NCBI GenBank assembly: GCA_035623855.1
Contig: DASPSQ010000005.1
Coordinates: 2,093 to 66,092, forward strand
Direction of reading: 5' to 3'
DNA from: Thermoplasmata archaeon
Lineage (GTDB): Archaea > Thermoplasmatota > Thermoplasmata > Lutacidiplasmatales > UBA184
Length of the DNA stretch: 64,000 nucleotides
Part shown: positions 28,267 to 63,026 of the stretch, piece after piece
Layout of the letters: every line of letters begins with the position of its first letter
Position numbering within the stretch: position 1 is the first letter of the stretch
The notes under the pieces: generated by a model
Databases searched by the model: none
Seen by the model: only the letters and a program-made list of their open reading frames with translations
Told to the model about the DNA's origin: nothing
Program-made: the position numbers and the translations under genes

Positions 28267-28269
28267 CGC

Positions 28270-29436: not shown

Positions 29437-29448
29437 TTGGATCGACTC

Positions 29449-46955: not shown

Positions 46956-46958
46956 GGC

Positions 46959-48200
46959 CTAGGACCCCTGCACATCGGCGGACAGCATTCGCATCAGCCG
47001 GCTCAACGTCAAGTCCGCCTCTTTCAGCTGCCGCGCCCGGAGCAGTTCGGTCGCCTCGCGGATCTGGATCGCGGCGTCGTGCGCCGTCTCGCTGTCCGGA
47101 GGGAGCGTTCGTACCCGACCCGCGAGCGTCCGAGCCTTCTTGAGGAGACGGTCGAGCATCGCCTCCTCCGACTCCGCTGGTTCGGGTGGCGCGGGAGGAG
47201 CCGGCGGGGGTGGCGCGGTCTTCTTCTCGAGCTCGAGAAGCTCCGCCCGAAGGTCCCGGACGCTCTGGACGGCCTCCGAGAGGCGGCCCTTCTTGAGGTG
47301 ACGGGTCGCCTCCAAGTGGAGGCGCCGGGCGGCGGCGCTCACCGAGGAGTCGTCCGGGTATTTGCTCAACGCCGCTTCGTGGCGCGCGAGCTCCGTCTCG
47401 AGCGAGGACGGGATCGCCTCGTGGAGCAGCATCAACGTCTGGGCCGCTTCCTCGGCGATCCGGTCGAGCGCGTCCTCCGAGAGGGACGGTCCCGCGATGT
47501 GGTCGCGAATCGCCTCGATCTCGCTCGAGATTTCTCCCAGAGGGAATCCGAGCTCTTCGGCCTCGGCGCGGAGCCCCTGGATCTGCGAGAGGAGCCCCTG
47601 GAGGCCCTTCCAATCGGCTTCGAACTGGCCGATCCGCTGCTCGGCGGCGACGAGGAGGTTCGCCGCCTCCTCCCGCTCACCGGAATCGATCGCGCCGTTG
47701 AGCTCGGCCAGGTCTCCGCCGAGGGCGAAGTGGACCCCGGTCTTCTCGAGGGCGGACCGCCGATCGGCGAGCAGCTGCGCGCGGGTCCGAAGGACTTCAT
47801 CCGTCTGCGTCTCGAGCCGCTGCTGGGCCGATCGGAGGATGTCGAGCGCTTCCGCGACGCGTCCCTCGGCTTCGCTCAGAGCCGCCTCGCAAAGCTCCGC
47901 GGTGACATCCGGCCCCGGACCGAGCCCGCGGACGAGGTCCATCTTGGAGCGAAGGTCGCGGCTGATCGCCGCGTTCAGTTCCTCCTCCGCGGACAGAGGA
48001 ACTGCCGCGGGTGTTGGACGGGGCTCAACGGCTGCGACCGGTCCGTCCGCGACCAAACTGTCGGTCTCCTCGTCCGAGATCGATCGAAGCCCCTCGATCG
48101 CGAGCGCCGTCGGAAAGCCACAGACCGAGCAATGCACGGCGGTCGACGCGATGGGCTGCTCGCAGATCGGACAACTCGACGGCACGGGCGACCTGTTCAC
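46959..48200 (-). CDS. Hypothetical protein with an N-terminal zinc ribbon followed by a long coiled-coil region and a PPPPAPPAPP linker.
   Basis: CPICEQPIASTAVHCSVCGF at the N-terminus, followed by ~350 aa of Leu/Ala/Glu-rich helix. Confidence 0.5.
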   Translation of the reverse strand: MNRSPVPSSCPICEQPIASTAVHCSVCGFPTALAIEGLRSISDEETDSLVADGPVAAVEPRPTPAAVPLSAEEELNAAISRDLRSKMDLVRGLGPGPDVTAELCEAALSEAEGRVAEALDILRSAQQRLETQTDEVLRTRAQLLADRRSALEKTGVHFALGGDLAELNGAIDSGEREEAANLLVAAEQRIGQFEADWKGLQGLLSQIQGLRAEAEELGFPLGEISSEIEAIRDHIAGPSLSEDALDRIAEEAAQTLMLLHEAIPSSLETELARHEAALSKYPDDSSVSAAARRLHLEATRHLKKGRLSEAVQSVRDLRAELLELEKKTAPPPPAPPAPPEPAESEEAMLDRLLKKARTLAGRVRTLPPDSETAHDAAIQIREATELLRARQLKEADLTLSRLMRMLSADVQGS

Positions 48201-48276
48201 TCTGGAAAGCGATGGGCCTGCCCTTAAGGACTTCTCCCGAGGGTCCTCCCGGTTCCCCCGAGACGCCGGCCGACGA

Positions 48277-48582
48277 TCACCCGCCGCTGAACGTGGAGAT
48301 CACGATCAGCCGCATCGGTCGGTCGATCGGGGTGTCGAGGGGGATCGGCGATTCCTCGAGGAGAACCGCGCTTCCTTCGGGCGGAAGGCCGGCCGAATGG
48401 AGCGCGGCCCGGACTTGCGTCCCGGCCGGGACACGGATCCGCCGGCGTCGCACGGACGCCCCGCGGGTCACTTCGAGCACGACGGAGATCACCGGAGGAG
48501 AGGAGGCGCTGAGGGGGAGAGTCTCCGGCGGCCGGGGATCGCCCGACGCGTCCTTTGAACTCCCGCGATGCATACGCATCAC
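48277..48582 (-). CDS. MoaD/ThiS-family ubiquitin-like small protein (SAMP-like) with a C-terminal Gly-Gly. The N-terminal start is uncertain.
   Basis: The C-terminal half, VRVPAGTQVRAALHSAGLPPEGSAVLLEESPIPLDTPIDRPMRLIVISTFSGG*, follows the MoaD/ThiS beta-grasp pattern (…AVNxExV…LxDGDxVxIxPPxSGG). The N-terminal ~30 aa are low-complexity. Confidence 0.45.
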   Translation of the reverse strand: MMRMHRGSSKDASGDPRPPETLPLSASSPPVISVVLEVTRGASVRRRRIRVPAGTQVRAALHSAGLPPEGSAVLLEESPIPLDTPIDRPMRLIVISTFSGG

Positions 48583-49852: not shown

Positions 49853-52066
49853 GTGGCGACCCCGACCGCACATGCGCCGCCGACGGAGGCACGCGTGTCG
49901 ACCGGCAATCGGGATCTCGACAGCATGCTCGAAGGCGGCCTGGTGGCCCGTCGCCCGTACCTCGTCGTCGGCCCGTCGGGGACCGGCAAGACCACGCTCG
50001 CCCTTCAGTTCCTGTGCGAAGGGATTCGGAACCACGAGCGGGCCCTTCTCGTCACCATCGAAGAGCCGCCGAACGAAGCCCGCCTCAACCACCCCGGGCT
50101 CTCCCCCGAGCTCGAACGGGTTGACGTCTTTGACGCGATCCCGGACATCATGCGGTACGAGCGGGTCCCGTTCAAGGACATCGCGTCGGTCCGCTACGCG
50201 CAGCCGTTCGCGGCCGTACCTCTGTCGATCCGTCAGTCGCCCGAGCTCTCGTCGGTGGAGGTGACCCTCGCCGCGCTCGAGCAGATGCTCCGGACCGAAG
50301 TCCTGCGCAAGGGGTACTCGAGGGTCGCGATCGATTCGCTCACGGCGCTTCAGTACTTTTGCATGAAAGGCTTCGAACCGGTCGCAGGCGCCCAGACGTT
50401 CCTGCGGTTCCTGTCCGACCTGCGGGTCACCACGATCATCACCGTCGAATCCCCCCTCGAGGACGTCGAGACCCCCGAGCGAGCCCTCGCGCGCGGGGAG
50501 ATCCGGCTCTTCCGCTGGGAGCACGAGAACCGAACCGTGCGCGCGATCGGAGTCGAGAAATTCCGGGGAAGTCCGCACGACGTCCGGCTGCATCCGTACC
50601 GGATCGGTCCCCATGGGCTCGACATCAATCTCGAGCTGACGATCTCGCGGGACACCCGCCAGATCATCGAGCCGGCTCCTCCTGCGTTCGCGATCGCGAC
50701 CCCGACGCCGATTCCGCTCGAGGAGGTCATCTCTCCGGTCGACCCCCTCGCCGAGGAGGTGCGGGACCTCGTCCTGGTCGGGGCGGACCTCGGTCCAGTG
50801 CGGACCGAGATCGAGGCCGCTCTGGGCGCGCTTGCCGCCGGCGACATCGAGCGCTCCCGAGGCCACATGTCGCGAGCCACCTCGCAAGTGATCGCGCTCT
50901 CCGCCGCGATTCCCCCCTCGCCCGAGACGGAGGTCCAGCGTCCGGTGGAGGTCGAGGAGGCGTTCCAGCGTCTCGTCCAGCGGGGAGAGTCCGCGAGGGC
51001 GGGGTTCCCGCCCACCCGGCTCCCTCCCCCGCGAGTCCTGGAGGTCGAGCTCGAGTGGGTGCTCTCCCTGATTCCCCCTGCGGCGGTTCCCTCCGAAGCC
51101 GAACCGGCCGAAGCAGTCATCCCGATCGCGGAGGGACCCGCCCTCGAACTCATCCCGGAGGCGGAGGTCGTCGCCGAGGCGGCTCCGGCCGCCGGGGCCG
51201 AGCCACCTCTCCCGAGTGTCGAGGAGCCCCCCATCGCGGTGACCGTGGAAGCTCAGATTCCGAAAGAGTCCGCCTCGGAAGAGCCCAGGGAGCCGACCCC
51301 TCCGCCGATTCCGACCCCTGCGGCAGAGCCGGCTCCAACTCCCACAGAGCCTCAGCCTCCGACAGTTCCAGAACCGCCGACGGTCCCTGTGACCTCACCA
51401 CGCTACCCCGCCCCTCCCGAACCACCCTCTCGCCCCCCCGTTGCGGCACCCCCTGAGCCCACGCGAGTCCTCCACGCTACGGGGGCTGCCCGCCCAGCGG
51501 AGCCCCCGGCCCCGCCAAGAGCCGAGGAGCCACGGCCTCCGTTGCCGTCCTTCGAAGTCGCCGCAGAGAAACCCACGAAAGCCCCCGGACACGGCGGCGG
51601 CTCCCGGGGCACCGGGACCCTCGTGTCGACCGGGCGGGCGCACGCACCCCGTCTCTCGTCCACCCCGGGCGGCCCTCGGCTACCCGCCACAGGGACCGTG
51701 CCGACCGGCGGAGCCGCGGAGGTTCAGAGTCCGACAACTCCAGGGGCTCCATCGAAGCGGAGGAAGAAGCCGACACCGGCCGTGCGAAAGAAGCCGGTCT
51801 CGACTGCCGTCCGCTCCGAACCCGTCCACGTTCCGCATGCAGCGCCGACCCCGCCTCCTCTCCCCGGTAGCCACACGCTCCACCCGCCCGAGGTTCCCTT
51901 GCCCCCGACCTCGCCGCCGCGGGCCAAGAAACGGACGGCCCGGAAACGCAAGGCGCCGACCGCGACGGGGGAGAGTGCGGGACCGCTTCGAGGGGCGGAA
52001 TCCTCCTCTGACGCCCACTCCACGGATTCCCCGGCTCTAGATCCCGAGCCGAAGGAGGGTGCGTGA
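49853..52066 (+). CDS. KaiC-like RecA-superfamily ATPase (single KaiC/RadA-paralog domain, ~250 aa) fused to a ~480-aa Pro/Ala/Glu-rich disordered tail with basic clusters.
   Basis: NRDLDSMLEGGLVARRPYLVVGPSGTGKTTLALQFL is the KaiC/RadA-like Walker A region; a Walker B-like VAIDSL follows. The tail carries PTPT/PEPP repeats and KRRKKPTPAVRKKP / RAKKRTARKRKAP basic patches. GTG start with an AGGAG 6-10 nt upstream. Confidence 0.65.
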   Translation: MATPTAHAPPTEARVSTGNRDLDSMLEGGLVARRPYLVVGPSGTGKTTLALQFLCEGIRNHERALLVTIEEPPNEARLNHPGLSPELERVDVFDAIPDIMRYERVPFKDIASVRYAQPFAAVPLSIRQSPELSSVEVTLAALEQMLRTEVLRKGYSRVAIDSLTALQYFCMKGFEPVAGAQTFLRFLSDLRVTTIITVESPLEDVETPERALARGEIRLFRWEHENRTVRAIGVEKFRGSPHDVRLHPYRIGPHGLDINLELTISRDTRQIIEPAPPAFAIATPTPIPLEEVISPVDPLAEEVRDLVLVGADLGPVRTEIEAALGALAAGDIERSRGHMSRATSQVIALSAAIPPSPETEVQRPVEVEEAFQRLVQRGESARAGFPPTRLPPPRVLEVELEWVLSLIPPAAVPSEAEPAEAVIPIAEGPALELIPEAEVVAEAAPAAGAEPPLPSVEEPPIAVTVEAQIPKESASEEPREPTPPPIPTPAAEPAPTPTEPQPPTVPEPPTVPVTSPRYPAPPEPPSRPPVAAPPEPTRVLHATGAARPAEPPAPPRAEEPRPPLPSFEVAAEKPTKAPGHGGGSRGTGTLVSTGRAHAPRLSSTPGGPRLPATGTVPTGGAAEVQSPTTPGAPSKRRKKPTPAVRKKPVSTAVRSEPVHVPHAAPTPPPLPGSHTLHPPEVPLPPTSPPRAKKRTARKRKAPTATGESAGPLRGAESSSDAHSTDSPALDPEPKEGA

Positions 52067-52842
52067 GCGCCTCCGACCTCCTTTCGGAGCACCGCGTGCC
52101 GACCGGGATCCCCGGCCTCGACCGGATGCTCGGGGGTGGGTTGGTCGCGGGCCGGCCGTACCTCGTGACGGGAGGCACCGGCAGCGGCAAGACCCTCCTC
52201 GGGCTCACGTTCCTTCTGGAGGGTCTGAAGCGAGGGGAGGAGGTCCTCCTTGTCGCGGTCGACGAGCCCCCGAGCGAGATCATCGAGAACGTCCAGTCGT
52301 TCGGCTGGGACCTCTCTTCGGTGAAAACCCTCGAGGCGAATCCCGGCACGCATGCGATCAAGCGGAACGTCGCGGTGCAGGAGATCCGCACGATGACCGA
52401 CCTGAAGTCGATGCGCGACCTCTCCCAGGAAGTAAAGCGGCCGGCCGACCTCGAGGACATCTCGATCCAGTCGATCCAGCTCAAGCTGCGTCAGCAGATG
52501 ACGACCCTGCCGTTCCGCCGGGTCCTGGTCGATTCGATCACGTCGGTCCGCCGGTTCGCGATCAAATCGTCGGTCGACCCTCAGGCCGAACGGACCGAGA
52601 TCCAGTCACTGCTCCGATTCCTCTCGGAGGCGGGGGTGACGACCCTCATCACCGCGACCCCGAGCGACCCGGCGTTGCTGACGCCCGAGGAGATCCTCAC
52701 GCGGGGCGAGATCCTCCTCACCCGCAAGTGGGTCGGAGACCGCTCGGTACGCCAGCTCAAGATCGTACGGATGCGCGGCTGCGCCCACGATCCGGAGCGT
52801 CGCCCGTTCGTCATCACCCCGCAGGGCATCGTCGTCGCCTAA
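52063..52842 (+). CDS. KaiC-like RecA-superfamily ATPase (single domain, 259 aa).
   Basis: GIPGLDRMLGGGLVAGRPYLVTGGTGSGKTLLGLTFL, Walker B VLVDSITS. The GTG start overlaps the upstream stop (GTGA). Confidence 0.7.
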   Translation: MSASDLLSEHRVPTGIPGLDRMLGGGLVAGRPYLVTGGTGSGKTLLGLTFLLEGLKRGEEVLLVAVDEPPSEIIENVQSFGWDLSSVKTLEANPGTHAIKRNVAVQEIRTMTDLKSMRDLSQEVKRPADLEDISIQSIQLKLRQQMTTLPFRRVLVDSITSVRRFAIKSSVDPQAERTEIQSLLRFLSEAGVTTLITATPSDPALLTPEEILTRGEILLTRKWVGDRSVRQLKIVRMRGCAHDPERRPFVITPQGIVVA

Positions 52843-54686: not shown

Positions 54687-57600
54687 ATGGCCGAGGACGA
54701 CTCCGCACCGGTGGCGAAGGCACCGACCGGCACCGACCCCATCGAGGAGATCCGCCGCCAGTTCCAAGAGGTGCATGCGGCGGAGGCTCGCCCGGACCGG
54801 GCCCGGTACCTGAGCAGTCTCAAGGGGTTCTTCGCCACGGTCGAAGCCCACTCGAAGGAACTCGGCCCCGCCGCAAGCGAAATCGCGCCGATGCTTGCCG
54901 ACGTGGCACTTGCGTTCTCGCGCGCCTCCCACCCGGATCTCGCCCGGCGTGCTGTCGATCTCGGCCTGGAGTTCTCCCCGGGCTCGTCCGCCCTCTTGCA
55001 TCACAAGGCGCTTCTCCTGCTCGGCCAGAACCAGGACCTTCCTCAGGTTCTGACGCTGGTCGATAGGGCGCTCGAAGGGAACCCGAACGACAAAGGTATC
55101 TGGGCGACCCGAGGGGACGTGCTCCGCCTCCAGGGTCGTGCGCCGGAGGCGGTGGAATCGTACCTTCACGCGCAACAGCTCGATGCGTCCTCCACCCAGT
55201 ACGTCGACAAGGCCCTCAAGCTGGCCCCCCACGACCCTCACACGTTGCGCGCGAAGCTCGACCTCGCGCGAGCGTTGGGTGGAGACGTCCGTGCGCTCGC
55301 GGCCTGTGATGAACTGCTTGCGATGAATCCGGACGACCTGGAGCTGGTCCGTGCGAGGGCCGAACTCCTGGCAGCGCTGGGTCGCGGCGCCGACGCACTC
55401 GAGCCGATCCAACGGGTACGGGCGGCCCACCCGGACGACGCCCGCGCTGCACTCTTCCACGCTCGGCTACTGTACCAGCTCGGCCAGGACGAGGAGGCCC
55501 AAGCGATTTCAAAGTCCATCATCGAGGCGCCGACCCCGCCGGAGCCCGCGGCGCTCGAAGAGCTCGCGCACCTCACGGAGCCGAAGACCCCCGAGCTCGC
55601 GCTGGCGGCCCGGGAGCGCCTGCAAGCGGTCGACTCGCGGAACGTCCAGAACCTTTTGGATCTGCGGGCCCTCGCGATGCGGCTCGAACGGCCCGAGCCG
55701 GCCCTCAAAGCGTGCCAGGCGATCCTCGCCGCGCACCCACAGAACCTGGAGGCGATGCGAGGGATCGCTGAGATCGAGCTCGCCGAGGGACATCACGACG
55801 CGGCGCTCGAGGCGTATCGGGACCTTCTGAAAGCCCACCCCCACGCGCTGAGCGAGTCGAGGAAGGGCCTCGAGGCGGCGCGGGAGGCGAACCGGCCGGA
55901 TCTCGTCCGGGAGTTCGCCCAGGCGATCCTGGTCGAGGAGCCGAACGATCTCGCCGCCCAGCTCGGGCTCGCCCGGGCATTCTCGAGCGCGGGCGACGCG
56001 GAGGGGGCGATCAAGGCGTACGACGCGCTACTCGAGGCGCATCCGGGAGAGCTCCCGTACCTTCTGGAGAAGAAGGAGATGGTCGCCCGGACGAACGACC
56101 CCGGCAAGCTCGCCCCCGTTCTGGACGAGCTGTTCCGACTCGACCCGACGCGCACGGATGTCGCGATCGAGCGGGGGAACCTCTTCCTCTCGCTCGCGTA
56201 CGACCGCGCGGAGGGTTCTGCGGAGCGGGACCAGGCGGCGCGGACCGCGCTCGTTTCCTACGAACGGGCATCGAGCGATCCCGACGCCGTGGACGTCGCG
56301 GAGCTCGGGGTCGCCCGAGCCTCGCGTCTCGTGAACGATCACGATCGTGCGATCCGCGCCTACGAGGCGTTCCTCGCCCGGGAACCGAACCACATGCGGA
56401 ACGACATCCTCAAGGAGCTCGGCCACGCGCTTAGAGAGACCGGTCGGTACTCGGAGGCCGCCGAGGCGTACGGGCGGGCGATCGGGGGTGGCCTCGAGGA
56501 CTCCGATCTCTTCTGGGGCGCGGTCGATGTCCTCGCGCTCCTGAACCAGGACGCTCGGGCCCTTCAGCTGCTCGAGCTCCTCTTGCGACGCGAGCCCGCG
56601 AATCCGCTGTACCTCCGCAAGCGGGGTCAGCTCCTCCTCAAGGCGGGCCGCCGTTCCGAGGCGCTCAGCACGCTCCAAGAAGCCGTGCAGGCCGCACACG
56701 GCGATCCCCACTCGTACTTCGAGGTCGCGGAAGCACTGCGCGCCCAGGGCGCCTACGCCGATGCGCTGACGTACTACCGGCAGGGCCTCGGGATCGATCC
56801 GAAGAACCGGCACGGCCGGCTCGCGCTCGCCGAGACCCTCCAGCTCGCCGGCCAGTACTCGGAGGTCCCGGGAATCGTCGACCCGCTCCTCAACGAAGAG
56901 CCGAACGACCTTGCGGCCTGGAAGGTCCGGGGCGATGCCCTTCGGGCCCTCGGTCGACCCGCCGAGGTGCTGTACTCGCTCCGCGCCATCCTCCTCCTGG
57001 AACCCGACAACGGCCCAGCACTGCTCGAGAAGTACCGTCTCCACACCGAGATGAACGAGACGAAGGAGGCGTTCGAGACTCTGAGCCACCTGTTGTCCAC
57101 CACTGCCCCCGAGGCCCAGGACGCGACCCTCCACCTCGAACGGGGAGACCTCGCGGCAAGCCTCGGATTGACCGAGGAAGCGAACGTGTCGTACGAGCAC
57201 GCCGCTCAGATCGATCCGGCGTACCGTACCGAGATCGCGATCCGACGGGCGCGCCTTCGCCTGACCGCCGGGAGGCCCGACCTCGCGCTCGAAGTCCTGG
57301 ACGAGGGACTGAAGGCCGCCCCCGCAGGCGCGCCGCCGAACATCGGGGCGCTCCTCCTGCGCGCGGAGATCTTGGGGGCGCTCGAGCGACCGGCCGAGGC
57401 GCGGGCCGCCTATGAGGAGGTCCGCCAGCGGGAGCCGAAGTCACCTCTAGCGCTCGCGGGAATCGCTCGGTCGATGCTCGAGGAGGGCCAACACGCCGAG
57501 GCGGCCGAGTTCCTCCGGACCGCGATCCCGCAGGCCCCTCCCCAGGAGTCCCTCTACCTCCTCCTCGGCGAAGCGGAGAGCGGTCTCGGCCACCTCGACA

Positions 57601-59351
57601 AGGCCAGCGAAGCCGTGCGCAAGGGCGTCGAGGTCCTACCGAAGAGCGTCGCGCTCTGGGCCCGGGAAGGCGAGCTCGGCGTCGCCCGCCAGGCCTGGGC
57701 CGACGCGGCGGGTGCGTACGCCCACGCGCTCGCCCTCACGCCGAGCGCGGTCGACGTCCTTCTGCGGGCGGGCTACGTCGCGGAGAAGCTCGAGCACCCG
57801 AACGAGGCGCTCGCGCTCTACGATCGCGCGACCGAGGCGGATCCGAAGAGCGTGGCCGCATGGACGAGCCGGGGCCTCGCGCTCATTGCGACCGGGCGGC
57901 CGGCCGACGCCGTCGCGAGCTTCGATCGTGCGCTCGCGCTCGACTCGGACTACGCTCCCGCAAAGGACGGGAAGAAGGTCGCGATCCAGAAAACGAAGGA
58001 CGCCGAAGTCCAGCGCTACGGCCGGGAAGCCCTCCTGCTCGAGGCGCGCCTCAACCGGACCGTCGCGAAGAACGATCTCTTCGTCACCCTCCACGTCCCG
58101 TACGAGTTCCTGGATGCGGTGCTCGCGGCGATCAGCCGGACGGTCAAGATCAACCTCGACCGTCTCGATTCCGCCGAGATCCGTGACCTCGAGAGCGCCT
58201 CGTACCACCTCATCACCTCTGCCCTCGAGCACCGCCCTCCCGGGATCGAGCGTCGGGGGTTCACCCTTGCCGACGTGGCGGTCCTCTCACCCCCCACGTA
58301 TACGCTTGACCAGGTGGAACGGCTCTTCAGCTACCTGCGGGCGGTTCTCGAGGCCGATCTGCGACCGGAGAATCTCGCCCTCACTCCGGACGTCGAGGAG
58401 CTCGCGCGCCAGGCGCTCGTCCTCCCGCCGGAGCAGCGAACGCTCTTCCAGATCGTGAAGAACCTCCGAGTCGGGCTGTACAAGGCGCGCCTCATCAAGG
58501 CCGTCGAGGAGGCCGGTGCGGCCGTCCATGCCCCGCTCCCGTCGCTCGACCTCGGCGCCTTCTCGCCGGAGTTCCGCACCGCCGGCGCACCCGAAGCAGC
58601 TCCGGAGAGTACGGTCCTCATCGAGGCCGCGGCGGTCGTTCCACCCGTCGCTGAGGCCGAGGTTGTCGTCGCTCCAGCCCCGACCGCGGGGGATTGGAGT
58701 GCGGCCCCCGAGCCGGCGGTCCCCGGACCCGCCCCCGCTGTCTCCCGGGGCGAACCGGCCCAGATGCGCTGCGTGGGATGCGGAGGGATCGCGGCGGTCC
58801 GCCATTCCTGCGGGGCCCCGCTCTGCCAGCACTGCATCGGTCAATTCCCGAACTGTCCAAAATGCGGGGAACCGGTCTCCGCGCTCACGACCCGACCCAT
58901 GGCGGGCGTCGTCGTCCAGTCGCCCCGCGCAAAGCCGGCCACCCGGCCCGCCTCCGCTCTCGGGAGCCTGAAGGGAGTGTTCCAGCGCTCCAAGCCCCCC
59001 GCGCCGAAGCCCGAGGGACCCTCGAAGCCCTCCGTCGCACGTCCGGCCGCTCCGACAAAGCCGGCGCCCCGTCCTTCGGCACCCCCTCCGCGTCCGCGGG
59101 AAGGGAGCGCCCCGAGCGCTCCCGGACCCAAGGGAGCGGCCCCGTCCTCTTCCGCCAAGCCCCCCGCGCTACCGGGCAAGACCGCGACCGCTGGAGCTCA
59201 GCCCCCTGGAACTCCACCGGGTAAGGCCGCCGCTACCGCTCCCGGTCCTGAAACTCCCCCAGCGAAGCCTGGAGCGACCGGCCCACCGTCGGGTCCGCCG
59301 GCAGGGGCCCATCCAAAGCGGGAGAAGAAGGACGACGAACCGAGGCTGTAG
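54687..59351 (+). CDS. Giant TPR-repeat protein (1554 aa) with a C-terminal zinc-ribbon/treble-clef module and a Pro/Ala-rich tail.
   Basis: About 30 or more Ala/Leu-rich TPR-like repeats (e.g. AEAYGRAIG…, ALALYDRATEADPKSVAAWTSRGLAL). Near the C-terminus: CVGCGGIAAVRHSCGAPLCQHCIGQFPNCPKCGEP. Confidence 0.7.
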   Translation: MAEDDSAPVAKAPTGTDPIEEIRRQFQEVHAAEARPDRARYLSSLKGFFATVEAHSKELGPAASEIAPMLADVALAFSRASHPDLARRAVDLGLEFSPGSSALLHHKALLLLGQNQDLPQVLTLVDRALEGNPNDKGIWATRGDVLRLQGRAPEAVESYLHAQQLDASSTQYVDKALKLAPHDPHTLRAKLDLARALGGDVRALAACDELLAMNPDDLELVRARAELLAALGRGADALEPIQRVRAAHPDDARAALFHARLLYQLGQDEEAQAISKSIIEAPTPPEPAALEELAHLTEPKTPELALAARERLQAVDSRNVQNLLDLRALAMRLERPEPALKACQAILAAHPQNLEAMRGIAEIELAEGHHDAALEAYRDLLKAHPHALSESRKGLEAAREANRPDLVREFAQAILVEEPNDLAAQLGLARAFSSAGDAEGAIKAYDALLEAHPGELPYLLEKKEMVARTNDPGKLAPVLDELFRLDPTRTDVAIERGNLFLSLAYDRAEGSAERDQAARTALVSYERASSDPDAVDVAELGVARASRLVNDHDRAIRAYEAFLAREPNHMRNDILKELGHALRETGRYSEAAEAYGRAIGGGLEDSDLFWGAVDVLALLNQDARALQLLELLLRREPANPLYLRKRGQLLLKAGRRSEALSTLQEAVQAAHGDPHSYFEVAEALRAQGAYADALTYYRQGLGIDPKNRHGRLALAETLQLAGQYSEVPGIVDPLLNEEPNDLAAWKVRGDALRALGRPAEVLYSLRAILLLEPDNGPALLEKYRLHTEMNETKEAFETLSHLLSTTAPEAQDATLHLERGDLAASLGLTEEANVSYEHAAQIDPAYRTEIAIRRARLRLTAGRPDLALEVLDEGLKAAPAGAPPNIGALLLRAEILGALERPAEARAAYEEVRQREPKSPLALAGIARSMLEEGQHAEAAEFLRTAIPQAPPQESLYLLLGEAESGLGHLDKASEAVRKGVEVLPKSVALWAREGELGVARQAWADAAGAYAHALALTPSAVDVLLRAGYVAEKLEHPNEALALYDRATEADPKSVAAWTSRGLALIATGRPADAVASFDRALALDSDYAPAKDGKKVAIQKTKDAEVQRYGREALLLEARLNRTVAKNDLFVTLHVPYEFLDAVLAAISRTVKINLDRLDSAEIRDLESASYHLITSALEHRPPGIERRGFTLADVAVLSPPTYTLDQVERLFSYLRAVLEADLRPENLALTPDVEELARQALVLPPEQRTLFQIVKNLRVGLYKARLIKAVEEAGAAVHAPLPSLDLGAFSPEFRTAGAPEAAPESTVLIEAAAVVPPVAEAEVVVAPAPTAGDWSAAPEPAVPGPAPAVSRGEPAQMRCVGCGGIAAVRHSCGAPLCQHCIGQFPNCPKCGEPVSALTTRPMAGVVVQSPRAKPATRPASALGSLKGVFQRSKPPAPKPEGPSKPSVARPAAPTKPAPRPSAPPPRPREGSAPSAPGPKGAAPSSSAKPPALPGKTATAGAQPPGTPPGKAAATAPGPETPPAKPGATGPPSGPPAGAHPKREKKDDEPRL

Positions 59352-59458: not shown

Positions 59459-59463
59459 TTATA
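59459..59463 (+). promoter_or_regulatory. TATA-like element (cTTATAg) ~33 nt upstream of the 59496 ATG, followed by the T-rich tgcatttttcg.
   Basis: AT-rich patch in a 144-bp intergenic region. Confidence 0.3.
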
Positions 59464-59495
59464 GTCGCCCTGCATTTTTCGTTGGGTCGATCTCC

Positions 59496-60047
59496 ATGGC
59501 AACCAGCTCACCGACGCTCCAACCGGTGCGAACGAAGTGGAGCGCGCCTCTGATCACCGCCCTCTTTCTGGTCGTCGCGGTGCTCGTCTTTGCCGGGATC
59601 TACCTCTCCGTCACTTCGGACCACGGATTCTGGGCGCTGATCGCGATCGGCGTCCTGTCACTGATCTTCTCGGGCGGCGCGTACCTGATGGAATCGGTCT
59701 CGCGTCAGCCGACCGCCCAGCGATCGCTCGCCTGGGGGTTCTTCGGGATGGGGTTCGCGGTCCTCCTTCTCACGATCGGACTCGGTCCGACATATGGGGT
59801 CCTCTCGACCATGGGGATGATCTGGGGCCTGGTCATCGTCCTCGTGGCCCTGATCATCGCGGTCGCACTCATCGCCTGGCGCGTCCGGGCGGTCCGGGCG
59901 ACGCAGAACCTCGAGGTCTCCCGATCCGCCTGGCGGAGCGAGCCGCCTACCTCGGCGTTCTCGTACGCCGCGGCGAACTCCCCGAGCGTTCCCGCCACGG
60001 CCCCGCCGCCTCCTTCGAACCCGCCCCAACCCCCGCGGAGCCCGTAA
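59496..60047 (+). CDS. Hypothetical integral membrane protein (4 TM helices) with a Pro-rich C-terminus.
   Basis: Four clear hydrophobic helices. It is the first gene of a tight four-gene cluster. Confidence 0.5.
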   Translation: MATSSPTLQPVRTKWSAPLITALFLVVAVLVFAGIYLSVTSDHGFWALIAIGVLSLIFSGGAYLMESVSRQPTAQRSLAWGFFGMGFAVLLLTIGLGPTYGVLSTMGMIWGLVIVLVALIIAVALIAWRVRAVRATQNLEVSRSAWRSEPPTSAFSYAAANSPSVPATAPPPPSNPPQPPRSP

Positions 60048-60048
60048 G

Positions 60049-60765
60049 ATGGCCGCCAATCCAGCTCCTCCGTCCCCCCCGGCTGTGCCCCCCGCCACCG
60101 GAGCGGCGTTGACGTGCCCGAAGTGCGGAGCGGTCGCGCCTCCGAACTCCCGGTACTGCAACGCGTGCGGCTCGTCGCTCTTCACCCAGGGCGGCAGTTC
60201 GACCGGGACCCAGGCTCCGGCGAATGCGCCACCGGTCGACCTTCGCGAGAAGGTCGAAAGCGACCGGGGGACCCTGAAGCGGCTGCAGCTGCTCATCCCC
60301 GGCTACCGCGGCTACCGCCAGGGGGAGGACATCCGAGAGGCGGACAGCTTCCTTCGCATTCAGGTGGCGGACAAGGTCAGGAACGCGCGAACGACCGTCG
60401 AGAACGCCCGGACGGCCCTCACGAACTCGAACCAGTTCCAGGCGCTCTACGACCTTGCGCCGTTGATCTCGGACCTCTGGCGGTTCGAAGGCGAGGTGCG
60501 CAACGCCGAACAGGGGTACACCGGAATCTCGGCCGCGGTCCGGATCAACCCGCAGCAGCTCGATCGGCTGTACGAATACGACTACGGGTTCGTCCTGGCG
60601 GCGGATACCCTGAGCCAGACGATCGCCCCTCTTCCGTCGGTCGCGGGCGGTTCGGACGGGGCGAAGACCAGCGCCCTGCTCGCCACGGCCCGGGGCCAGC
60701 TGAACCAGCTCGAGCAGGCATTCAAGGCGCGCATCCAGGTCATCGAAGGAATTCGGATCTCGTAG
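60049..60765 (+). CDS. Zinc-ribbon protein with a C-terminal ~180-aa helical domain.
   Basis: CPKCGAVAPPNSRYCNACG at the N-terminus. It starts 2 nt after the upstream stop. Confidence 0.5.
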   Translation: MAANPAPPSPPAVPPATGAALTCPKCGAVAPPNSRYCNACGSSLFTQGGSSTGTQAPANAPPVDLREKVESDRGTLKRLQLLIPGYRGYRQGEDIREADSFLRIQVADKVRNARTTVENARTALTNSNQFQALYDLAPLISDLWRFEGEVRNAEQGYTGISAAVRINPQQLDRLYEYDYGFVLAADTLSQTIAPLPSVAGGSDGAKTSALLATARGQLNQLEQAFKARIQVIEGIRIS

Positions 60766-60782
60766 GAAGATGGAGTAGAACG

Positions 60783-61943
60783 ATGGTCACCAACAACCCG
60801 ATACCGGCGACCGGCGGCAGCCTCATCGGCGCGACGACGATCAACTGGGAGGACGCCTACAAGGGGAACAACGTGATGTGGCGCGTCCCGCGCAACATCC
60901 GTCTGAACGACAACGTGGTCGTCCGCCAGGACGAGACCGCGGTCTTCTACCGGGATGGAAAGGTCCTCGCCTACCTCGATAAACCGGACCGCTACGCGCT
61001 CACGAGCTTGAACGCGCCGATCGTGGGCGGGCTCGTTCGCGCCCTGAGCGGGGTACGACAGGAGGCGGAGGTCTACTACCTCCAGCGCCGGATCTTCGAC
61101 GGGAAGTTCGGGAGCACCGAGCCGTACGTCTTCCGGGATCCGGACTTCGGCCTGGTCCAGCTCCGCGTCTTCGGCAGCTACCGCTGGCGGGTCGGAGCCC
61201 CGGACAATTTCATCAACCAGTTCGTCGGAACGTTCGGCGCGGTCTCGACGCCGGACGTCGAGAACCGCCTGCGCGACCAGATGGTCCTCCTGGTCTACAA
61301 CACCCTCGGCAAGATGAAGGACCAGGGGATGAAGGTCACCGACCTCGCGACCTCGCTCACGACGATCGAGCAGGCGATCCTCGGATTCGCCCCGCAGCAC
61401 TTCAGCCCGCTCGGGGTCGAGGTCAACCAGGTCCAAGGGCTCTCGATCAACCTCCCGGACGATGTCCAGGCGGCCGTGAACGAACGGTCGAAGATGGGTG
61501 TCCTCGGCGTGAACTACATGCAGTACCAGGCGGGCCAGGCGATGGTGGACGCGGCCAAGAACCCGTCCGGCGGCGCCGGCGCGATGGCCGGCGCAGGTGT
61601 CGGGCTCGGTGCGGGTCTGGGAATGGGGTACGGAATGACCGGCCAGATGTCCGGGATGTACGGCCCCGGCCCGGCGACCCCGTGCCCGAAGTGCGGCACG
61701 CTGGTTCCGGCGGGCAACCGATTCTGTCCGGGCTGCGGGAGCCCGATGGGCGGTGGACCTCCAGCCGCGACCGGGGCGCCGTGCCCGAAATGCGGGCAGC
61801 CGGCGCCCGCGGGCGTGAAGTTCTGCCCGAACTGCGGTGCCTCTCTTGCCCCGGCGCCTCCCCGCAAGTGCCCGAAGTGCAACCAGGACGTCCCGGCGAC
61901 GAGCAAGTTCTGCCCGAGCTGTGGCACCGCGATGACCGGCTGA
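60783..61943 (+). CDS. SPFH/Band-7-like domain protein with three C-terminal zinc ribbons (COG4260/YdjI-like architecture).
   Basis: N-terminal ~230-aa beta/alpha domain (WRVPRNIRLNDNVVVRQDETAVFYRDGKVLAYLDKPDRYALTS…), then CPKCGTLVPAGNRFCPGCG, CPKCGQPAPAGVKFCPNCG and CPKCNQDVPATSKFCPSCG. The SPFH assignment is from pattern recognition and is not verified. Confidence 0.5.
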   Translation: MVTNNPIPATGGSLIGATTINWEDAYKGNNVMWRVPRNIRLNDNVVVRQDETAVFYRDGKVLAYLDKPDRYALTSLNAPIVGGLVRALSGVRQEAEVYYLQRRIFDGKFGSTEPYVFRDPDFGLVQLRVFGSYRWRVGAPDNFINQFVGTFGAVSTPDVENRLRDQMVLLVYNTLGKMKDQGMKVTDLATSLTTIEQAILGFAPQHFSPLGVEVNQVQGLSINLPDDVQAAVNERSKMGVLGVNYMQYQAGQAMVDAAKNPSGGAGAMAGAGVGLGAGLGMGYGMTGQMSGMYGPGPATPCPKCGTLVPAGNRFCPGCGSPMGGGPPAATGAPCPKCGQPAPAGVKFCPNCGASLAPAPPRKCPKCNQDVPATSKFCPSCGTAMTG

Positions 61944-61987
61944 GTTGCTCGAGATTCCAGTAGAACGGTAGGGGGATCGAAACGGAC

Positions 61988-62968
61988 ATGTTCTGCACCA
62001 AGTGTGGCGCGACCCTTCCGGACGACGCCGTCTTCTGCTCGAAGTGCGGCACCCGGACCGGTGCGGGCGCTGGAGCGGGCGGTCCCGCCCCGTCCGCCGC
62101 CCCCGCCGCGGGAGGTGCCCCGACGCTCGGGGCCGCCGGTGTGCAGGAGCTGAAATGTCCGTCCTGCGGCGCTCCGATCCACCCGACCTTCGGCGAGACC
62201 GTCATCTCGTGCGACTATTGCGGCGGATCCGTCACGCTCGGCGGGCAGGGATGGAAGGAGATCAACAAGCACACGATGCTCTCCCTCAAGGTCAGCGACC
62301 CCCAGGCGGCCCTCAAGGTCGTCCACGGCTGGATCGACGAGGGGTTCTTCCATCGCCACGATTTCGAGGAGTCGAAGATCCTCGAGACGAAGCTCACGTA
62401 CGTTCCGTTCTGGATCATGCCGGTCTCCGCGTCGACGACGTTCACCTACCAGGCCGTCGCGACGAGCGTCGGCGCGACTGCCGGGACGATCGCCGCCGGC
62501 GCGCTCCTCGGCAACGCGCTCGGCGGTCGTCGCGGAGGGTTCACCGTCGTCCCGATCATGGCCGGCCCGGTCGTGAACCCGAACCGCTCGGACACGATCA
62601 CGGGCCAATACGAGTACCCCGTGATCGCCGTCAAGGCGATGACGACGTACCAGCCGAGGGACTACGCGTTCGGGCTCGGCGAGCGGACGTTCTTCGACAA
62701 GAAGACGATCCCAGGGGGGACGACGATCCTGAACGGCGATCTGAGCGAGGATGCCGCCAAGGGGTCGGCGCGCGCCTACGTCCAACAGCTCCAGGCCGAC
62801 GCGGCGCACAAGAAGCACAGCACCTGCTCGAACCTCAAGAGCGAGATCAACGTCGGCGACGCGGAGCTCCTCCACGCCCCGATCTGGGAGTTCAAGCTCG
62901 AGCACAAGGGCCAGCGCCAGACGATCATCGTGGACGGGAACGGCGGACGGGTGATCCGGACCGTCTAG
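61988..62968 (+). CDS. Double zinc-ribbon protein with a C-terminal ~250-aa domain (YdjG-like architecture).
   Basis: CTKCGATLPDDAVFCSKCG and CPSCGAPIHPTFGETVISCDYCGG, followed by a mixed alpha/beta domain. Confidence 0.5.
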   Translation: MFCTKCGATLPDDAVFCSKCGTRTGAGAGAGGPAPSAAPAAGGAPTLGAAGVQELKCPSCGAPIHPTFGETVISCDYCGGSVTLGGQGWKEINKHTMLSLKVSDPQAALKVVHGWIDEGFFHRHDFEESKILETKLTYVPFWIMPVSASTTFTYQAVATSVGATAGTIAAGALLGNALGGRRGGFTVVPIMAGPVVNPNRSDTITGQYEYPVIAVKAMTTYQPRDYAFGLGERTFFDKKTIPGGTTILNGDLSEDAAKGSARAYVQQLQADAAHKKHSTCSNLKSEINVGDAELLHAPIWEFKLEHKGQRQTIIVDGNGGRVIRTV

Positions 62969-63026
62969 ACCCACGTTTCACGTGGCGGCCCTCCTTTAAG
63001 AACCCCCTGCTTCCTCAAATCACCGG

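What the first reader, a model, noticed from the sequence alone, without database searches (positions are those of the whole stretch)
59496..62968. Four-gene membrane/Zn-ribbon/SPFH cluster resembling the PspA-associated YdjGHI module, but without PspA
The gene order is: 4-TM membrane protein; Zn-ribbon + helical protein; a protein with an N-terminal SPFH/Band-7-like domain and three C-terminal zinc ribbons (the COG4260/YdjI-type architecture); a double-Zn-ribbon protein (YdjG-like architecture). Intergenic gaps are 1-44 nt. In Bacillus, YdjG/YdjH/YdjI recruit PspA (IM30/ESCRT-III-like) to the membrane. An archaeal counterpart with a different first gene and no pspA in this window would be an unusual membrane-stress or membrane-remodelling module.
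Basis: partly seen in the sequence, partly recalled or inferred. Interest (0 to 1): 0.7.

Follow-up and report, generated by a model that had tools for sequence, protein, structure and literature searches.

The report
Archaeal SPFH–zinc-ribbon membrane gene module
Four adjacent genes in an uncultured Thermoplasmata archaeon contain a conserved three-gene core, two genes of which are related to the bacterial membrane-stress proteins YdjI and YdjG and the third of which is an undescribed helical protein; nobody has characterised this archaeal version.

Summary
Four same-strand genes lie at 59496-62968 with gaps of 1, 17 and 44 nt:
- G1: a 4-TM protein.
- G2: a Zn-ribbon plus a four-helix bundle.
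- G3: a soluble SPFH protein (Pfam Band_7_1, E 1e-32) with three Zn-ribbons.
- G4: two Zn-ribbons plus an alpha/beta core.

G3 is YdjI/SamI-type. G4 belongs to the YdjG/SamG family, because its distant bacterial relatives have the YdjG layout and sit next to TPM (YdjH-type) or Band_7_1 genes. There is no TPM/YdjH equivalent and no PspA.

G1 is not part of the conserved unit; it occurs only in the close clade. The conserved unit is G2-G3-G4, found in that order in 54 of 80 species-level archaeal genomes (Thermoplasmatota and Thaumarchaeota), with no other conserved neighbour.

G2 belongs to a large family with no Pfam model. It is distantly related to the Leptospira LIMLP_15305 family and unrelated to PspA.

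Archaeal G4 lacks the bacterial C-terminal TM helix and instead carries a Gly/Ala/Met-rich, moderately hydrophobic insertion.

Most likely this is a PspA-independent, SPFH-based assembly on the cytoplasmic face of the membrane. The function is inferred, not shown. I rate it a new variant of a known kind.

The parts
59459..59464 (+). TATA-like hexamer TTATAG, 37 nt upstream of the G1 start codon; candidate archaeal promoter of the operon
   Evidence: Read directly from the sequence. Inference only, because the promoter tool covers sigma-70 promoters only.
59496..60047 (+). G1: 183-aa integral membrane protein with four TM segments and a Pro-rich cytoplasmic tail; a clade-specific first gene
   Evidence: GC3 is 0.86. 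Four segments have KD19 of 2.0-3.2. No Pfam, NCBIfam or PADLOC family matches. Homologues occur in only 25 of 80 loci, all in the close Thermoplasmata clade.
60049..60765 (+). G2: 238 aa. N-terminal Zn-ribbon (DNA 60115-60180), a disordered Ser/Gly/Thr/Pro linker, then a conserved domain of about 175 aa ending in a four-helix bundle (DNA 60238-60762)
   Evidence: Pfam Zn_Ribbon_1 matches at 3.5e-6. AlphaFold gives mean pLDDT 71, mostly 84-94 in the bundle helices. The family has 1350 clusters and no Pfam domain. All 17 diverse members hit NCBIfam NF047596 LIMLP_15305, best E 3e-13, well below the curated cutoff. Conserved motifs are LKKLQLLIPGxRGYRxxEDxRxAD and QGYxGI...LYEYDYxF.
60783..61943 (+). 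G3: 386-aa soluble SPFH protein. Band_7_1 domain (DNA 60882-61502), Gly/Ala/Met-rich low-complexity linker (about 61566-61676), three Zn-ribbons (61683-61934)
   Evidence: PF13421 matches at 1.2e-32 and there are 3 Zn_Ribbon_1 stretches. No hydrophobic segment is present; KD19 maximum is 1.20. It is 61-63% identical to the Thermoplasmatales and Thaumarchaeota orthologues. No PDB relative is found by sequence.
61988..62968 (+). G4: 326-aa YdjG/SamG-family protein. Zn-ribbon 1 (61994-62047), Zn-ribbon 2 (62156-62221), alpha/beta core (62240-62965) interrupted by a Gly/Ala-rich, moderately hydrophobic insertion (62450-62581). No C-terminal TM.
62971..62985 (+). Perfect inverted repeat CCACGT-TTC-ACGTGG three bases after the G4 stop codon; possible 3' end or terminator hairpin of the operon
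   Evidence: Read directly from the sequence. No terminator-like site on the + strand lies inside the cluster. Inference.

Best explanation
G1-G4 form one operon of a Thermoplasmata archaeon. Its conserved functional unit is the triad G2-G3-G4.

G3 is a soluble SPFH scaffold of the YdjI/SamI type. G4 is the archaeal form of YdjG/SamG. G2 is a four-helix-bundle partner found with them in archaea.

Proposed mechanism (inferred):
- G4 sits at the cytoplasmic face of the membrane. It is held there by its Gly/Ala/Met-rich hydrophobic insertion, which replaces the bacterial C-terminal TM helix. In this clade the 4-TM protein G1 adds to the anchoring.
- G4 docks oligomers of the SPFH protein G3.
- G2 binds the G3/G4 assembly as an adaptor or regulator.
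- One Zn-ribbon type (CxxC-x7-12-[FY]CxxCG) is carried on flexible linkers by all three proteins. It acts as a shared docking or clustering element.
- The result is a sub-membrane SPFH platform that monitors or organises the membrane without an operon-encoded PspA/ESCRT-III effector. This resembles the PspA-independent regulatory role reported for SamGHI in Bacillus subtilis.

Shown here: gene structure, domain content, the homologies of G3 and G4, the conservation and self-containment of the triad, and the absence of PspA and TPM nearby.

Inferred: membrane location of G3/G4, physical interaction, the role of the ribbons, and the physiological output.
For: Operon structure:
- The four genes are co-directional with gaps of 1, 17 and 44 nt and high GC3.
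- No + strand terminator-like site lies inside the cluster.

G3:
- Band_7_1 matches at 1.2e-32, there are 3 Zn-ribbons, and there is no hydrophobic segment.
- This is the layout described for YdjI: soluble, SPFH, low-complexity region plus Zn finger (PMC8581546; PMC11237479).

G4:
- Whole-library phmmer links it to bacterial proteins with two ribbons, the same core and a TM.
- Those proteins neighbour TPM_phosphatase genes or a Band_7_1 gene.

Triad:
- G2-G3-G4 occur in this order in 54 of 80 genomes across Thermoplasmata, Thermoplasmatales and Thaumarchaeota/Nitrososphaerales.
- No other neighbour is conserved.
- A very distant version, L093, keeps ZnR-G2, SPFH+ZnR and two G4-like genes that carry TM helices.

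Other points:
- Within the 64-kb window, the five ribbons of this type all lie in G2, G3 and G4.
- The G4 insertion and the lack of a C-terminal TM hold across the archaeal loci where the motif search could be applied.
- A PspA-independent role for SamGHI is reported in bioRxiv 10.64898/2026.02.06.704340.
Against: - No experiment or structure shows that any of these archaeal proteins is at the membrane or that they interact.
- In most triad loci there is no integral membrane protein at all.
- The G4 insertion is only marginally hydrophobic, with KD19 of 1.1-1.66. The complex could therefore be cytosolic.
- The G4 structure model is poor (pLDDT 60), and Foldseek finds no significant match.
- 22 genomes carry G4 with no adjacent G2 or G3, so G4 can act, or be encoded, apart from the others.
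Confidence: 0.5

Rival explanations
1. The triad is a membrane recruiter for an ESCRT-III-superfamily protein (PspA, CdvB or the minimal Thermoplasmata ESCRT-III) encoded elsewhere in the genome. It would work as YdjGHI does for PspA in Bacillus.
For: - YdjI is required to bring PspA to the membrane (PMC8581546).
- An SPFH + coiled-coil + Zn-ribbon protein is a component of Methanobacteriales ESCRT loci. Thermoplasmata and TACK archaea carry reduced ESCRT systems, with no CdvA in Thermoplasmata (PMC11188069).
- The triad was found in exactly these two groups: Thermoplasmatota and Thaumarchaeota.
Against: - No PspA-like ORF was found in the window or in the 84 related loci. This search was seeded with an E. 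coli PspA sequence recalled from memory, so it is weak evidence.
- No gene family is conserved next to the triad.
- No PspA_IM30 or Snf7 hit appeared in the window.
- The taxonomic match may come from keeping only the 80 best of 229 hits.
Confidence: 0.2
2. The triad is a cytosolic, Zn- or redox-responsive assembly and has no membrane role. The six Cys4 ribbons and the Gly/Ala/Met-rich low-complexity segments would drive reversible clustering.
For: - G2, G3 and G4 have no clear TM segment.
- Most triad loci lack any membrane protein gene.
- Low-complexity G/A/M segments occur in both G3 and G4.
- There are 24 ribbon cysteines across the three proteins.
Against: - SPFH proteins characterised so far act at membranes.
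- Distant G4 relatives carry real TM helices.
- In this clade a 4-TM gene abuts G2, separated by 1 nt.
Confidence: 0.12
3. G3 is an SPFH cage that regulates a membrane protease, as in HflK/C-FtsH or stomatin-NfeD. The PepSY/cystatin-like core of G4 would act as a protease-binding or inhibitory element.
For: - SPFH proteins often partner with proteases.
Against: - No protease gene lies in the operon or is conserved nearby.
- G3 has no TM anchor and no long coiled coil of the kind that builds HflK/C-type cages.
- The G4 fold assignment is weak.
Confidence: 0.08
4. The cluster is an anti-virus or abortive-infection system. The G2 four-helix bundle would be a membrane-disrupting effector of the MLKL or CC-NLR kind, held in check by the SPFH protein.
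Against: - These are generic up-down helical bundles at 5-11% identity. Designed helical repeats score highest.
- PADLOC gives no hit for G1-G4, and PHROGs gives none beyond Zn-ribbons and one marginal G2 hit at E 0.003.
- The genes are highly conserved (G3 62-76% identical across phyla).
- They are flanked by housekeeping genes, unlike defence islands.
Confidence: 0.04

Closest known systems
Bacillus subtilis pspA-ydjGHI (renamed pspA-samGHI) operon
   Same: - A soluble Band_7_1 SPFH protein with a low-complexity segment and C-terminal Zn-ribbon(s) (YdjI/SamI matches G3).
- A protein with two N-terminal Zn-ribbons and a YpeB/PepSY-like core (YdjG/SamG matches G4).
- The two genes are adjacent in one operon.
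   Different: - No pspA and no TPM-domain YdjH.
- G4 has no C-terminal TM; it carries an internal Gly/Ala/Met-rich insertion instead.
- G3 has three ribbons rather than one.
- There is an extra conserved partner, G2 (four-helix bundle, LIMLP_15305-like), and a clade-specific 4-TM gene, G1.
- Gene order is SPFH then YdjG-like, the reverse of the Bacillus order.
- The hosts are archaea.
Bacterial YdjG-like/TPM and Band_7_1/YdjG-like gene pairs (Eubacterium, Treponema and metagenomic loci L085, L088, L089)
   Same: - They show that the G4-family protein travels with SPFH or TPM partners without PspA.
- In Treponema the order Band_7_1 then G4-like is the same as G3 then G4.
   Different: - No G2-like gene was detected in these loci (hmmsearch with the A5 profile).
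- The G4-like proteins carry C-terminal TM helices.
- Identity to G4 is only about 29-36% over the matched stretches.
SPFH + coiled-coil + Zn-ribbon protein of Methanobacteriales 'Meth_adaptin' ESCRT loci (Makarova et al. 2024, PMC11188069)
   Same: An archaeal SPFH protein fused to a Zn-ribbon, discussed in the paper in relation to YdjI and ESCRT-III.
   Different: - That protein is encoded next to Vps4, ESCRT-III and adaptin-like genes and has a coiled coil.
- The triad here has no ESCRT neighbour in any locus examined, and G3 has no long coiled coil.
- The sequences were not compared directly.
NCBIfam NF047596, LIMLP_15305 family protein (Leptospira), for G2
   Same: A full-length match of the roughly 175-aa helical domain (profile positions 11-172 of 175) for all 17 diverse G2 homologues, with best E 3e-13.
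   Different: - Scores of about 42 bits are far below the family cutoff of 210, so G2 is a distant relative and not a member.
- The Leptospira family has no known function, and I could not examine its gene context.
Classical membrane-anchored SPFH systems (HflK/C-FtsH, stomatin-NfeD, flotillin-YqiJ/YuaF)
   Same: An SPFH domain is present (Band_7 PF01145 also matches weakly, 3e-5).
   Different: - No TM segment or hairpin, and no long coiled-coil wall.
- No protease, NfeD or YqiJ partner gene.

Membership tests
SPFH, Band_7_1 subfamily (PF13421; YdjI/SamI type), for G3 | Match to PF13421 above the gathering score | tested here: met
   113.7 bits against a cutoff of 24, E 1.2e-32, profile positions 3-211 of 211.
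SPFH, Band_7_1 subfamily (PF13421; YdjI/SamI type), for G3 | Soluble: no TM helix or membrane hairpin | tested here: met
   The KD19 maximum is 1.20 and no segment reaches 1.6.
SPFH, Band_7_1 subfamily (PF13421; YdjI/SamI type), for G3 | Low-complexity segment followed by C-terminal Zn-ribbon(s) | tested here: met
   A Gly/Ala/Met-rich stretch at residues 262-298 is followed by three Zn_Ribbon_1 stretches. This is conserved as 2-3 ribbons in nearly all orthologues scored.
SPFH, Band_7_1 subfamily (PF13421; YdjI/SamI type), for G3 | Membrane localisation that depends on YdjG/YdjH-type partners; higher-order oligomer | not testable with these tools
   This needs localisation or biochemical data.
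YdjG/SamG family, for G4 | Two N-terminal Zn-ribbons | tested here: met
   C3/C6/C17/C20 and C57/C60/C75/C78 are invariant. Pfam DZR matches at 6.5e-9.
YdjG/SamG family, for G4 | Sequence homology to bacterial proteins of YdjG architecture that neighbour a TPM (YdjH-type) gene | tested here: met
   P0356 and P0361 match at E 1e-10 and 3e-10 in a search of 1.8 billion proteins. Both are followed by a TPM_phosphatase gene. The B. subtilis YdjG sequence itself was not available.
YdjG/SamG family, for G4 | Core domain of YpeB/PepSY (NTF2-like) fold | tested here: inconclusive
YdjG/SamG family, for G4 | C-terminal transmembrane segment | tested here: not met
   The tail after the last conserved motif is about 27 aa with KD19 below 1.4 in all archaeal loci scored. 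The only hydrophobic stretch is the internal insertion, KD19 1.53.
pspA-ydjGHI / SamGHI system (whole operon) | pspA (PspA_IM30) gene in the operon | tested here: not met
   No PspA_IM30 or Snf7 hit among the window genes scanned. hhalign of the G2 family against PspA gives 0.4% probability. jackhmmer finds nothing in 84 loci. In both of these the PspA sequence was recalled from memory.
pspA-ydjGHI / SamGHI system (whole operon) | TPM-domain membrane protein (YdjH/SamH) | tested here: not met
   G1 has no TPM_phosphatase match, and none was found in the window genes scanned or in the genes called on the source contig.
pspA-ydjGHI / SamGHI system (whole operon) | Adjacent SPFH (Band_7_1) and YdjG-like genes | tested here: met
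   G3 and G4 are 44 nt apart. They are adjacent in 57 of 80 genomes.
PspA / ESCRT-III superfamily, for G2 | Sequence or fold similarity to PspA, Vipp1 or Snf7 | tested here: not met
NCBIfam NF047596 LIMLP_15305 family, for G2 | Score above the curated cutoff (210 bits) | tested here: not met
   41-43 bits for G2. All 17 homologues match full-length at E down to 3e-13. This makes G2 a homologous domain, not a member of the equivalog.
Known anti-phage defence systems (PADLOC) | Match of any of the four proteins to a PADLOC model | tested here: not met
   0 families for G1-G4 at E up to 0.01.

The most novel reading that the evidence does not exclude
The G2-G3-G4 triad is an old, self-contained archaeal SPFH machine with its own dedicated helical partner, G2. 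It would act as the missing membrane adaptor for the reduced ESCRT-III systems of Thermoplasmatota, which lack CdvA, and for those of TACK archaea. If so, the SPFH/ESCRT-III partnership seen in Bacillus (YdjI-PspA) would be much older than Firmicutes and would date to early prokaryotic evolution.
Probability: 0.15. Interest if true: 0.8.

Novelty: new variant of a known kind. Interest (0 to 1): 0.55.

Why it matters
SPFH proteins organise membranes in all domains of life. The soluble Band_7_1 branch has been studied experimentally only in Bacillus subtilis, and always alongside PspA.

This analysis shows that the SPFH/YdjG-like pair is widespread in archaea. There it occurs without PspA or the TPM protein, has a different membrane-attachment solution, and has a third, undescribed partner family: about 1350 clusters at 90% identity, with no Pfam model.

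This gives three things:
- A defined three-protein target for studying how wall-less or S-layer archaea monitor or organise their membranes.
- A test of whether PspA is an add-on to an older SPFH sensor.
- A candidate link between SPFH proteins and the reduced ESCRT systems of Thermoplasmatota and Thaumarchaeota.

It also supplies annotation for thousands of proteins now labelled only 'zinc ribbon domain-containing' or 'hypothetical'.

Tried and rejected
G2 as a divergent PspA/ESCRT-III: rejected.
- No Pfam hit at E up to 5 for 17 members.
- The PDB profile search was empty.
- hhalign against PspA gave 0.4%.

G1 as a YdjH equivalent: rejected. It has no TPM match and is restricted to one clade.

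A defence system: PADLOC and PHROGs gave nothing beyond Zn-ribbon matches and one marginal G2 hit (phrog_6126, E 0.003).

The upstream 1554-aa TPR protein as part of the conserved module: it is syntenic only in the close clade (20 of 80 loci). No flanking family is conserved across distant triad loci.

Searches that led nowhere:
- tRNA and Rfam scans of the window found nothing.
- The search for related loci with the very diverse alignment A3 failed for lack of conserved stretches. A narrower alignment, A4, worked.
- The afdb50 fold library was unavailable.
- PDB sequence searches for G3 found nothing.
- The literature on LIMLP_15305 gave only a table entry.
- Searches for PF13421, Band_7_1 and COG4260 found almost no literature.
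- Foldseek of the G4 model against the PDB gave no significant hit.
- My first GC3-based gene caller merged G2 and G3 into one wrong-frame ORF, 60114-61943. A frame-specific GC3 check corrected this.

Full report
**Source and setting**

The window is archaeal. It encodes TFIIB, ribosomal protein L31e and eIF-6. G3 is encoded identically on an 80.8-kb ENA metagenome contig and on three shorter contigs. G4 is identical to an NCBI entry labelled 'MAG: Thermoplasmata archaeon'. GC content is 63-71%. No tRNA or Rfam family was found.

**Checking the observation**

- Third-position GC is 0.86, 0.87, 0.90 and 0.91.
- The gaps are 1, 17 and 44 nt.
- A TATA-like TTATAG lies 37 nt upstream of the G1 ATG. 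A perfect 6-bp inverted repeat follows the G4 stop codon.
- No terminator-like site on the + strand lies inside the cluster. The scan is built for bacteria, so this is weak evidence.

**Anatomy of the four proteins**

G1 (183 aa) has four hydrophobic segments with KD19 peaks of 2.0-3.2, followed by a Pro-rich tail. No family matches it.

G2 (238 aa) has one Zn-ribbon at residues 23-44 and a disordered linker.
- AlphaFold predicts four long helices forming a bundle at 95-236. Mean pLDDT is 71, mostly 84-94 in the helices, with a dip at the 157-167 loop.

G3 (386 aa) matches Band_7_1 (PF13421) at 1.2e-32 over residues 34-240.
- A Gly/Ala/Met-rich low-complexity stretch follows, then three Zn-ribbons.
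- It has no hydrophobic segment.

G4 (326 aa) has two Zn-ribbons and then an alpha/beta core.
- A 44-residue Gly/Ala-rich insertion splits the core. Its hydropathy (KD19 1.53) is just under the usual TM threshold.
- There is no C-terminal hydrophobic tail.

Within the 64-kb window, the motif CxxC-x7-12-[FY]CxxCG occurs five times. All five are in G2, G3 (three copies) and G4 ribbon 1. The second G4 ribbon is a different type, and it is the one conserved throughout the wider G4 family.

**What G4 is**

G4 has hundreds of homologues at 64% identity or more in Thermoplasmata MAGs.
- An exhaustive phmmer search of 1.84 billion representatives found 846 clusters at E up to 1e-3 and 116 at E up to 1e-10.
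- Distant members keep ribbon 2 and the core. They lack the insertion, and many end in one or more TM helices.
- Bacterial members have two ribbons, the core and a C-terminal TM (P0350, P0379). One cluster is annotated 'TFIIB-type zinc ribbon-containing protein [Eubacterium sp.]'.

The gene contexts of these bacterial relatives are informative.
- In two unrelated bacterial loci the G4-like gene is followed directly by a TPM_phosphatase gene.
- In a Treponema contig it is preceded directly by a Band_7_1 gene.

Published work describes B. subtilis YdjG as two Zn-ribbons, a YpeB-related NTF2-like domain and a TM segment. It describes YdjH as a TPM-domain membrane protein and YdjI as Band-7 plus a C-terminal Zn-ribbon (PMC11237479; PMC8581546). 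On this basis G4 belongs to the YdjG/SamG family.

The fold evidence is only suggestive.
- The model has pLDDT 60, and Foldseek finds nothing significant.

The archaeal branch differs from the bacterial one in a defining feature. It has no C-terminal TM. Instead it carries a 65-100-residue Gly/Ala/Met-rich insertion in every archaeal locus where the motif search could be applied.

**What G2 is**

G2 homologues are also highly conserved in Thermoplasmata.
- A profile of 17 diverse helical domains (A5) finds 1350 clusters, none with a Pfam domain on the helical part.
- All 17 match NCBIfam NF047596 (LIMLP_15305 family, Leptospira) over the full length. The best E is 3e-13 and scores are far below the family cutoff.

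I found no link to PspA, ESCRT-III or any other described family.
- Pfam at E up to 5 gave nothing consistent.
- The PDB profile search was empty.
- hhalign against E. coli PspA gave 0.4%. I recalled that PspA sequence from memory, so this is weak evidence.

The N-terminal Zn-ribbon of G2 is present only in the close clade and in the distant locus L093. Elsewhere G2 is a bare protein of about 180 aa.

**Conservation of the cluster**

I scanned one genome per species (GTDB) with a G4 alignment. This returned 229 relatives, of which the best 80 loci were kept. I searched their ORFs with the four proteins and with profiles.
- 54 loci have G2-G3-G4 adjacent and in this order.
- 3 more have G3-G4 with the upstream part cut off by the contig end.
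- 22 have G4 alone, and 1 is cut at G4.

The triad carriers are labelled Thermoplasmata, Thermoplasmatales, Thermoplasmataceae and Thaumarchaeota/Nitrososphaerales. One is labelled 'Thermoplasmatales archaeon AK 2', without a MAG tag.

The G4-alone loci are mostly Bathyarchaeia, some Nitrososphaerota and one Methanomassiliicoccales. In a Bathyarchaeia locus, G4 sits beside rpl37ae and exosome genes.

G1 occurs in 25 loci and the upstream TPR protein in 20. All of these are in the close clade, L005-L032.

In distant triad loci the flanks are unrelated housekeeping genes: Drg GTPase, an M32 carboxypeptidase-like gene and TrpRS-like genes in L043, and an ATPase-TPR protein in L062. Clustering the flanking ORFs of 28 distant loci found no family conserved beyond sub-clades.

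Pairwise identity among the window, a Thermoplasmatales genome and a Thaumarchaeota MAG is 36-41% for G2, 62-76% for G3 and 44-57% for G4. G3 is therefore the most constrained.

A much more distant locus, L093 (GC 0.50), keeps the same logic. It has ZnR + G2-like (A5 profile 1e-26), then Band_7_1 + ribbons, then two G4-like paralogues that both end in TM helices. The bacterial loci examined contain no G2-like ORF.

**Absence of PspA and YdjH**

No PspA_IM30, Snf7 or TPM_phosphatase hit appeared in the window genes scanned or among the genes called on the source contig downstream of the window. A PspA-seeded jackhmmer search over all ORFs of the window and 84 loci found nothing (seed recalled from memory). 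A 64-kb window cannot show that these genes are absent from the genome.

**Mechanism**

The homologies show an SPFH protein of the soluble YdjI/SamI type encoded next to a YdjG/SamG-type protein.
- In B. subtilis, YdjG and YdjH anchor YdjI at the membrane and YdjI recruits PspA.
- A 2026 preprint reports that SamI also restrains SamGH signalling, and that this role does not need PspA.

I infer that in archaea G4 docks G3 oligomers at the cytoplasmic face of the membrane. The hydrophobic insertion, and G1 in this clade, would replace the bacterial TM anchor. G2 would be a dedicated adaptor or regulator. The shared ribbon type would act as a common docking element.

I put this at about 0.5. The weakest step is membrane association, because most triad loci encode no integral membrane protein and the insertion is only marginally hydrophobic.

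**Rivals**

- A recruiter for an ESCRT-III or PspA protein encoded elsewhere (0.2). Makarova et al. 2024 found an SPFH + Zn-ribbon protein in Methanobacteriales ESCRT loci. They also note that Thermoplasmata have a minimal ESCRT system without CdvA.
- A cytosolic Zn- or redox-responsive assembly (0.12).
- A protease-regulating SPFH cage (0.08).
- A defence system with a pore-forming four-helix bundle (0.04).

**Comparison and novelty**

The closest known system is pspA-ydjGHI (SamGHI). This cluster shares two of its four components.
- It fails two defining features of the system: pspA and the TPM protein.
- It fails one defining feature of YdjG: the C-terminal TM.
- It adds a conserved partner of an undescribed family.

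The PSP surveys I read describe the ydj-type association only for Firmicutes, and neither mentions this archaeal triad. Literature searches for the Band_7_1 family returned almost nothing. I therefore classify it as a new variant of a known kind, of moderate interest. Its function is still inferred.

Noticed in passing
window 54687-59351 (+): A 1554-aa TPR-repeat protein lies directly upstream, 144 nt from G1. Near its C-terminus it has a Cys-rich segment (MRCVGCGG...CQHCIGQFPNCPKCGEPV), followed by a long Pro/Ala-rich tail that resembles the Pro-rich tail of G1. It is syntenic with the cluster in 20 close-clade loci and in none of the distant ones. L062 has an unrelated ATPase-TPR protein at the same position.
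   Followed up: partly
window 25309-30957 (-): Three consecutive genes: a 985-aa protein with a globular N-terminal part and a very long coiled coil (no Pfam hit), a 389-aa P-loop protein (GIPASGKT motif, no Pfam hit), and a 503-aa vWA-domain protein. This may be an uncharacterised NTPase, vWA and coiled-coil system.
   Followed up: no
window 49853-52842 (+): Two adjacent KaiC-like ATPase genes (PF06745). The first is 737 aa and has a long Pro-rich C-terminal extension. An EVE-domain gene and a divergently oriented HD-domain gene follow.
   Followed up: no
window 45849-48299 (-): Two adjacent genes of 369 and 446 aa with good coding statistics and no Pfam match at E up to 1e-4.
   Followed up: no
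L045 7001-8065 and about 20 similar loci (Bathyarchaeia, some Nitrososphaerota, L069 Methanomassiliicoccales): G4 homologues at 39-42% identity, with an even longer Gly-rich insertion of about 100 aa, occur with no adjacent G2 or G3. In L045 the gene lies beside rpl37ae, Rrp41/42/4-like and SBDS-like genes. I could not check whether G2 and G3 are encoded elsewhere in these genomes.
   Followed up: partly
L093 3250-7108: A distant version of the module from NCBI assembly GCA_040961035.1 (GC 0.50). It has ZnR + G2-like, then Band_7_1 + ribbons, then two tandem G4-like paralogues that each end in TM helices. This suggests the TM-anchored form is ancestral and that the insertion-bearing, TM-less form is derived.
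   Followed up: partly
L062 5825-6991 versus L043 5770-6966: The G3 orthologues of a Thermoplasmatales genome and a Thaumarchaeota MAG are 76% identical. That is closer than either is to the Thermoplasmata window (62-63%). It hints at transfer of the triad between phyla, or at very strong constraint.
   Followed up: no
L046, L056, L065: Contigs assigned to bacterial MAGs (Limnocylindrales, Actinomycetes, Acidiferrales) carry archaeal-type G4 genes at 40-44% identity to the query. Mis-binned archaeal contigs are the likely explanation.
   Followed up: no
window 62971-62985: A perfect palindrome, CCACGT-TTC-ACGTGG, lies three bases after the G4 stop codon. A TTTAAG follows at 62995-63000, ahead of the next gene, a PKD-domain protein starting at 63027.
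   Followed up: no
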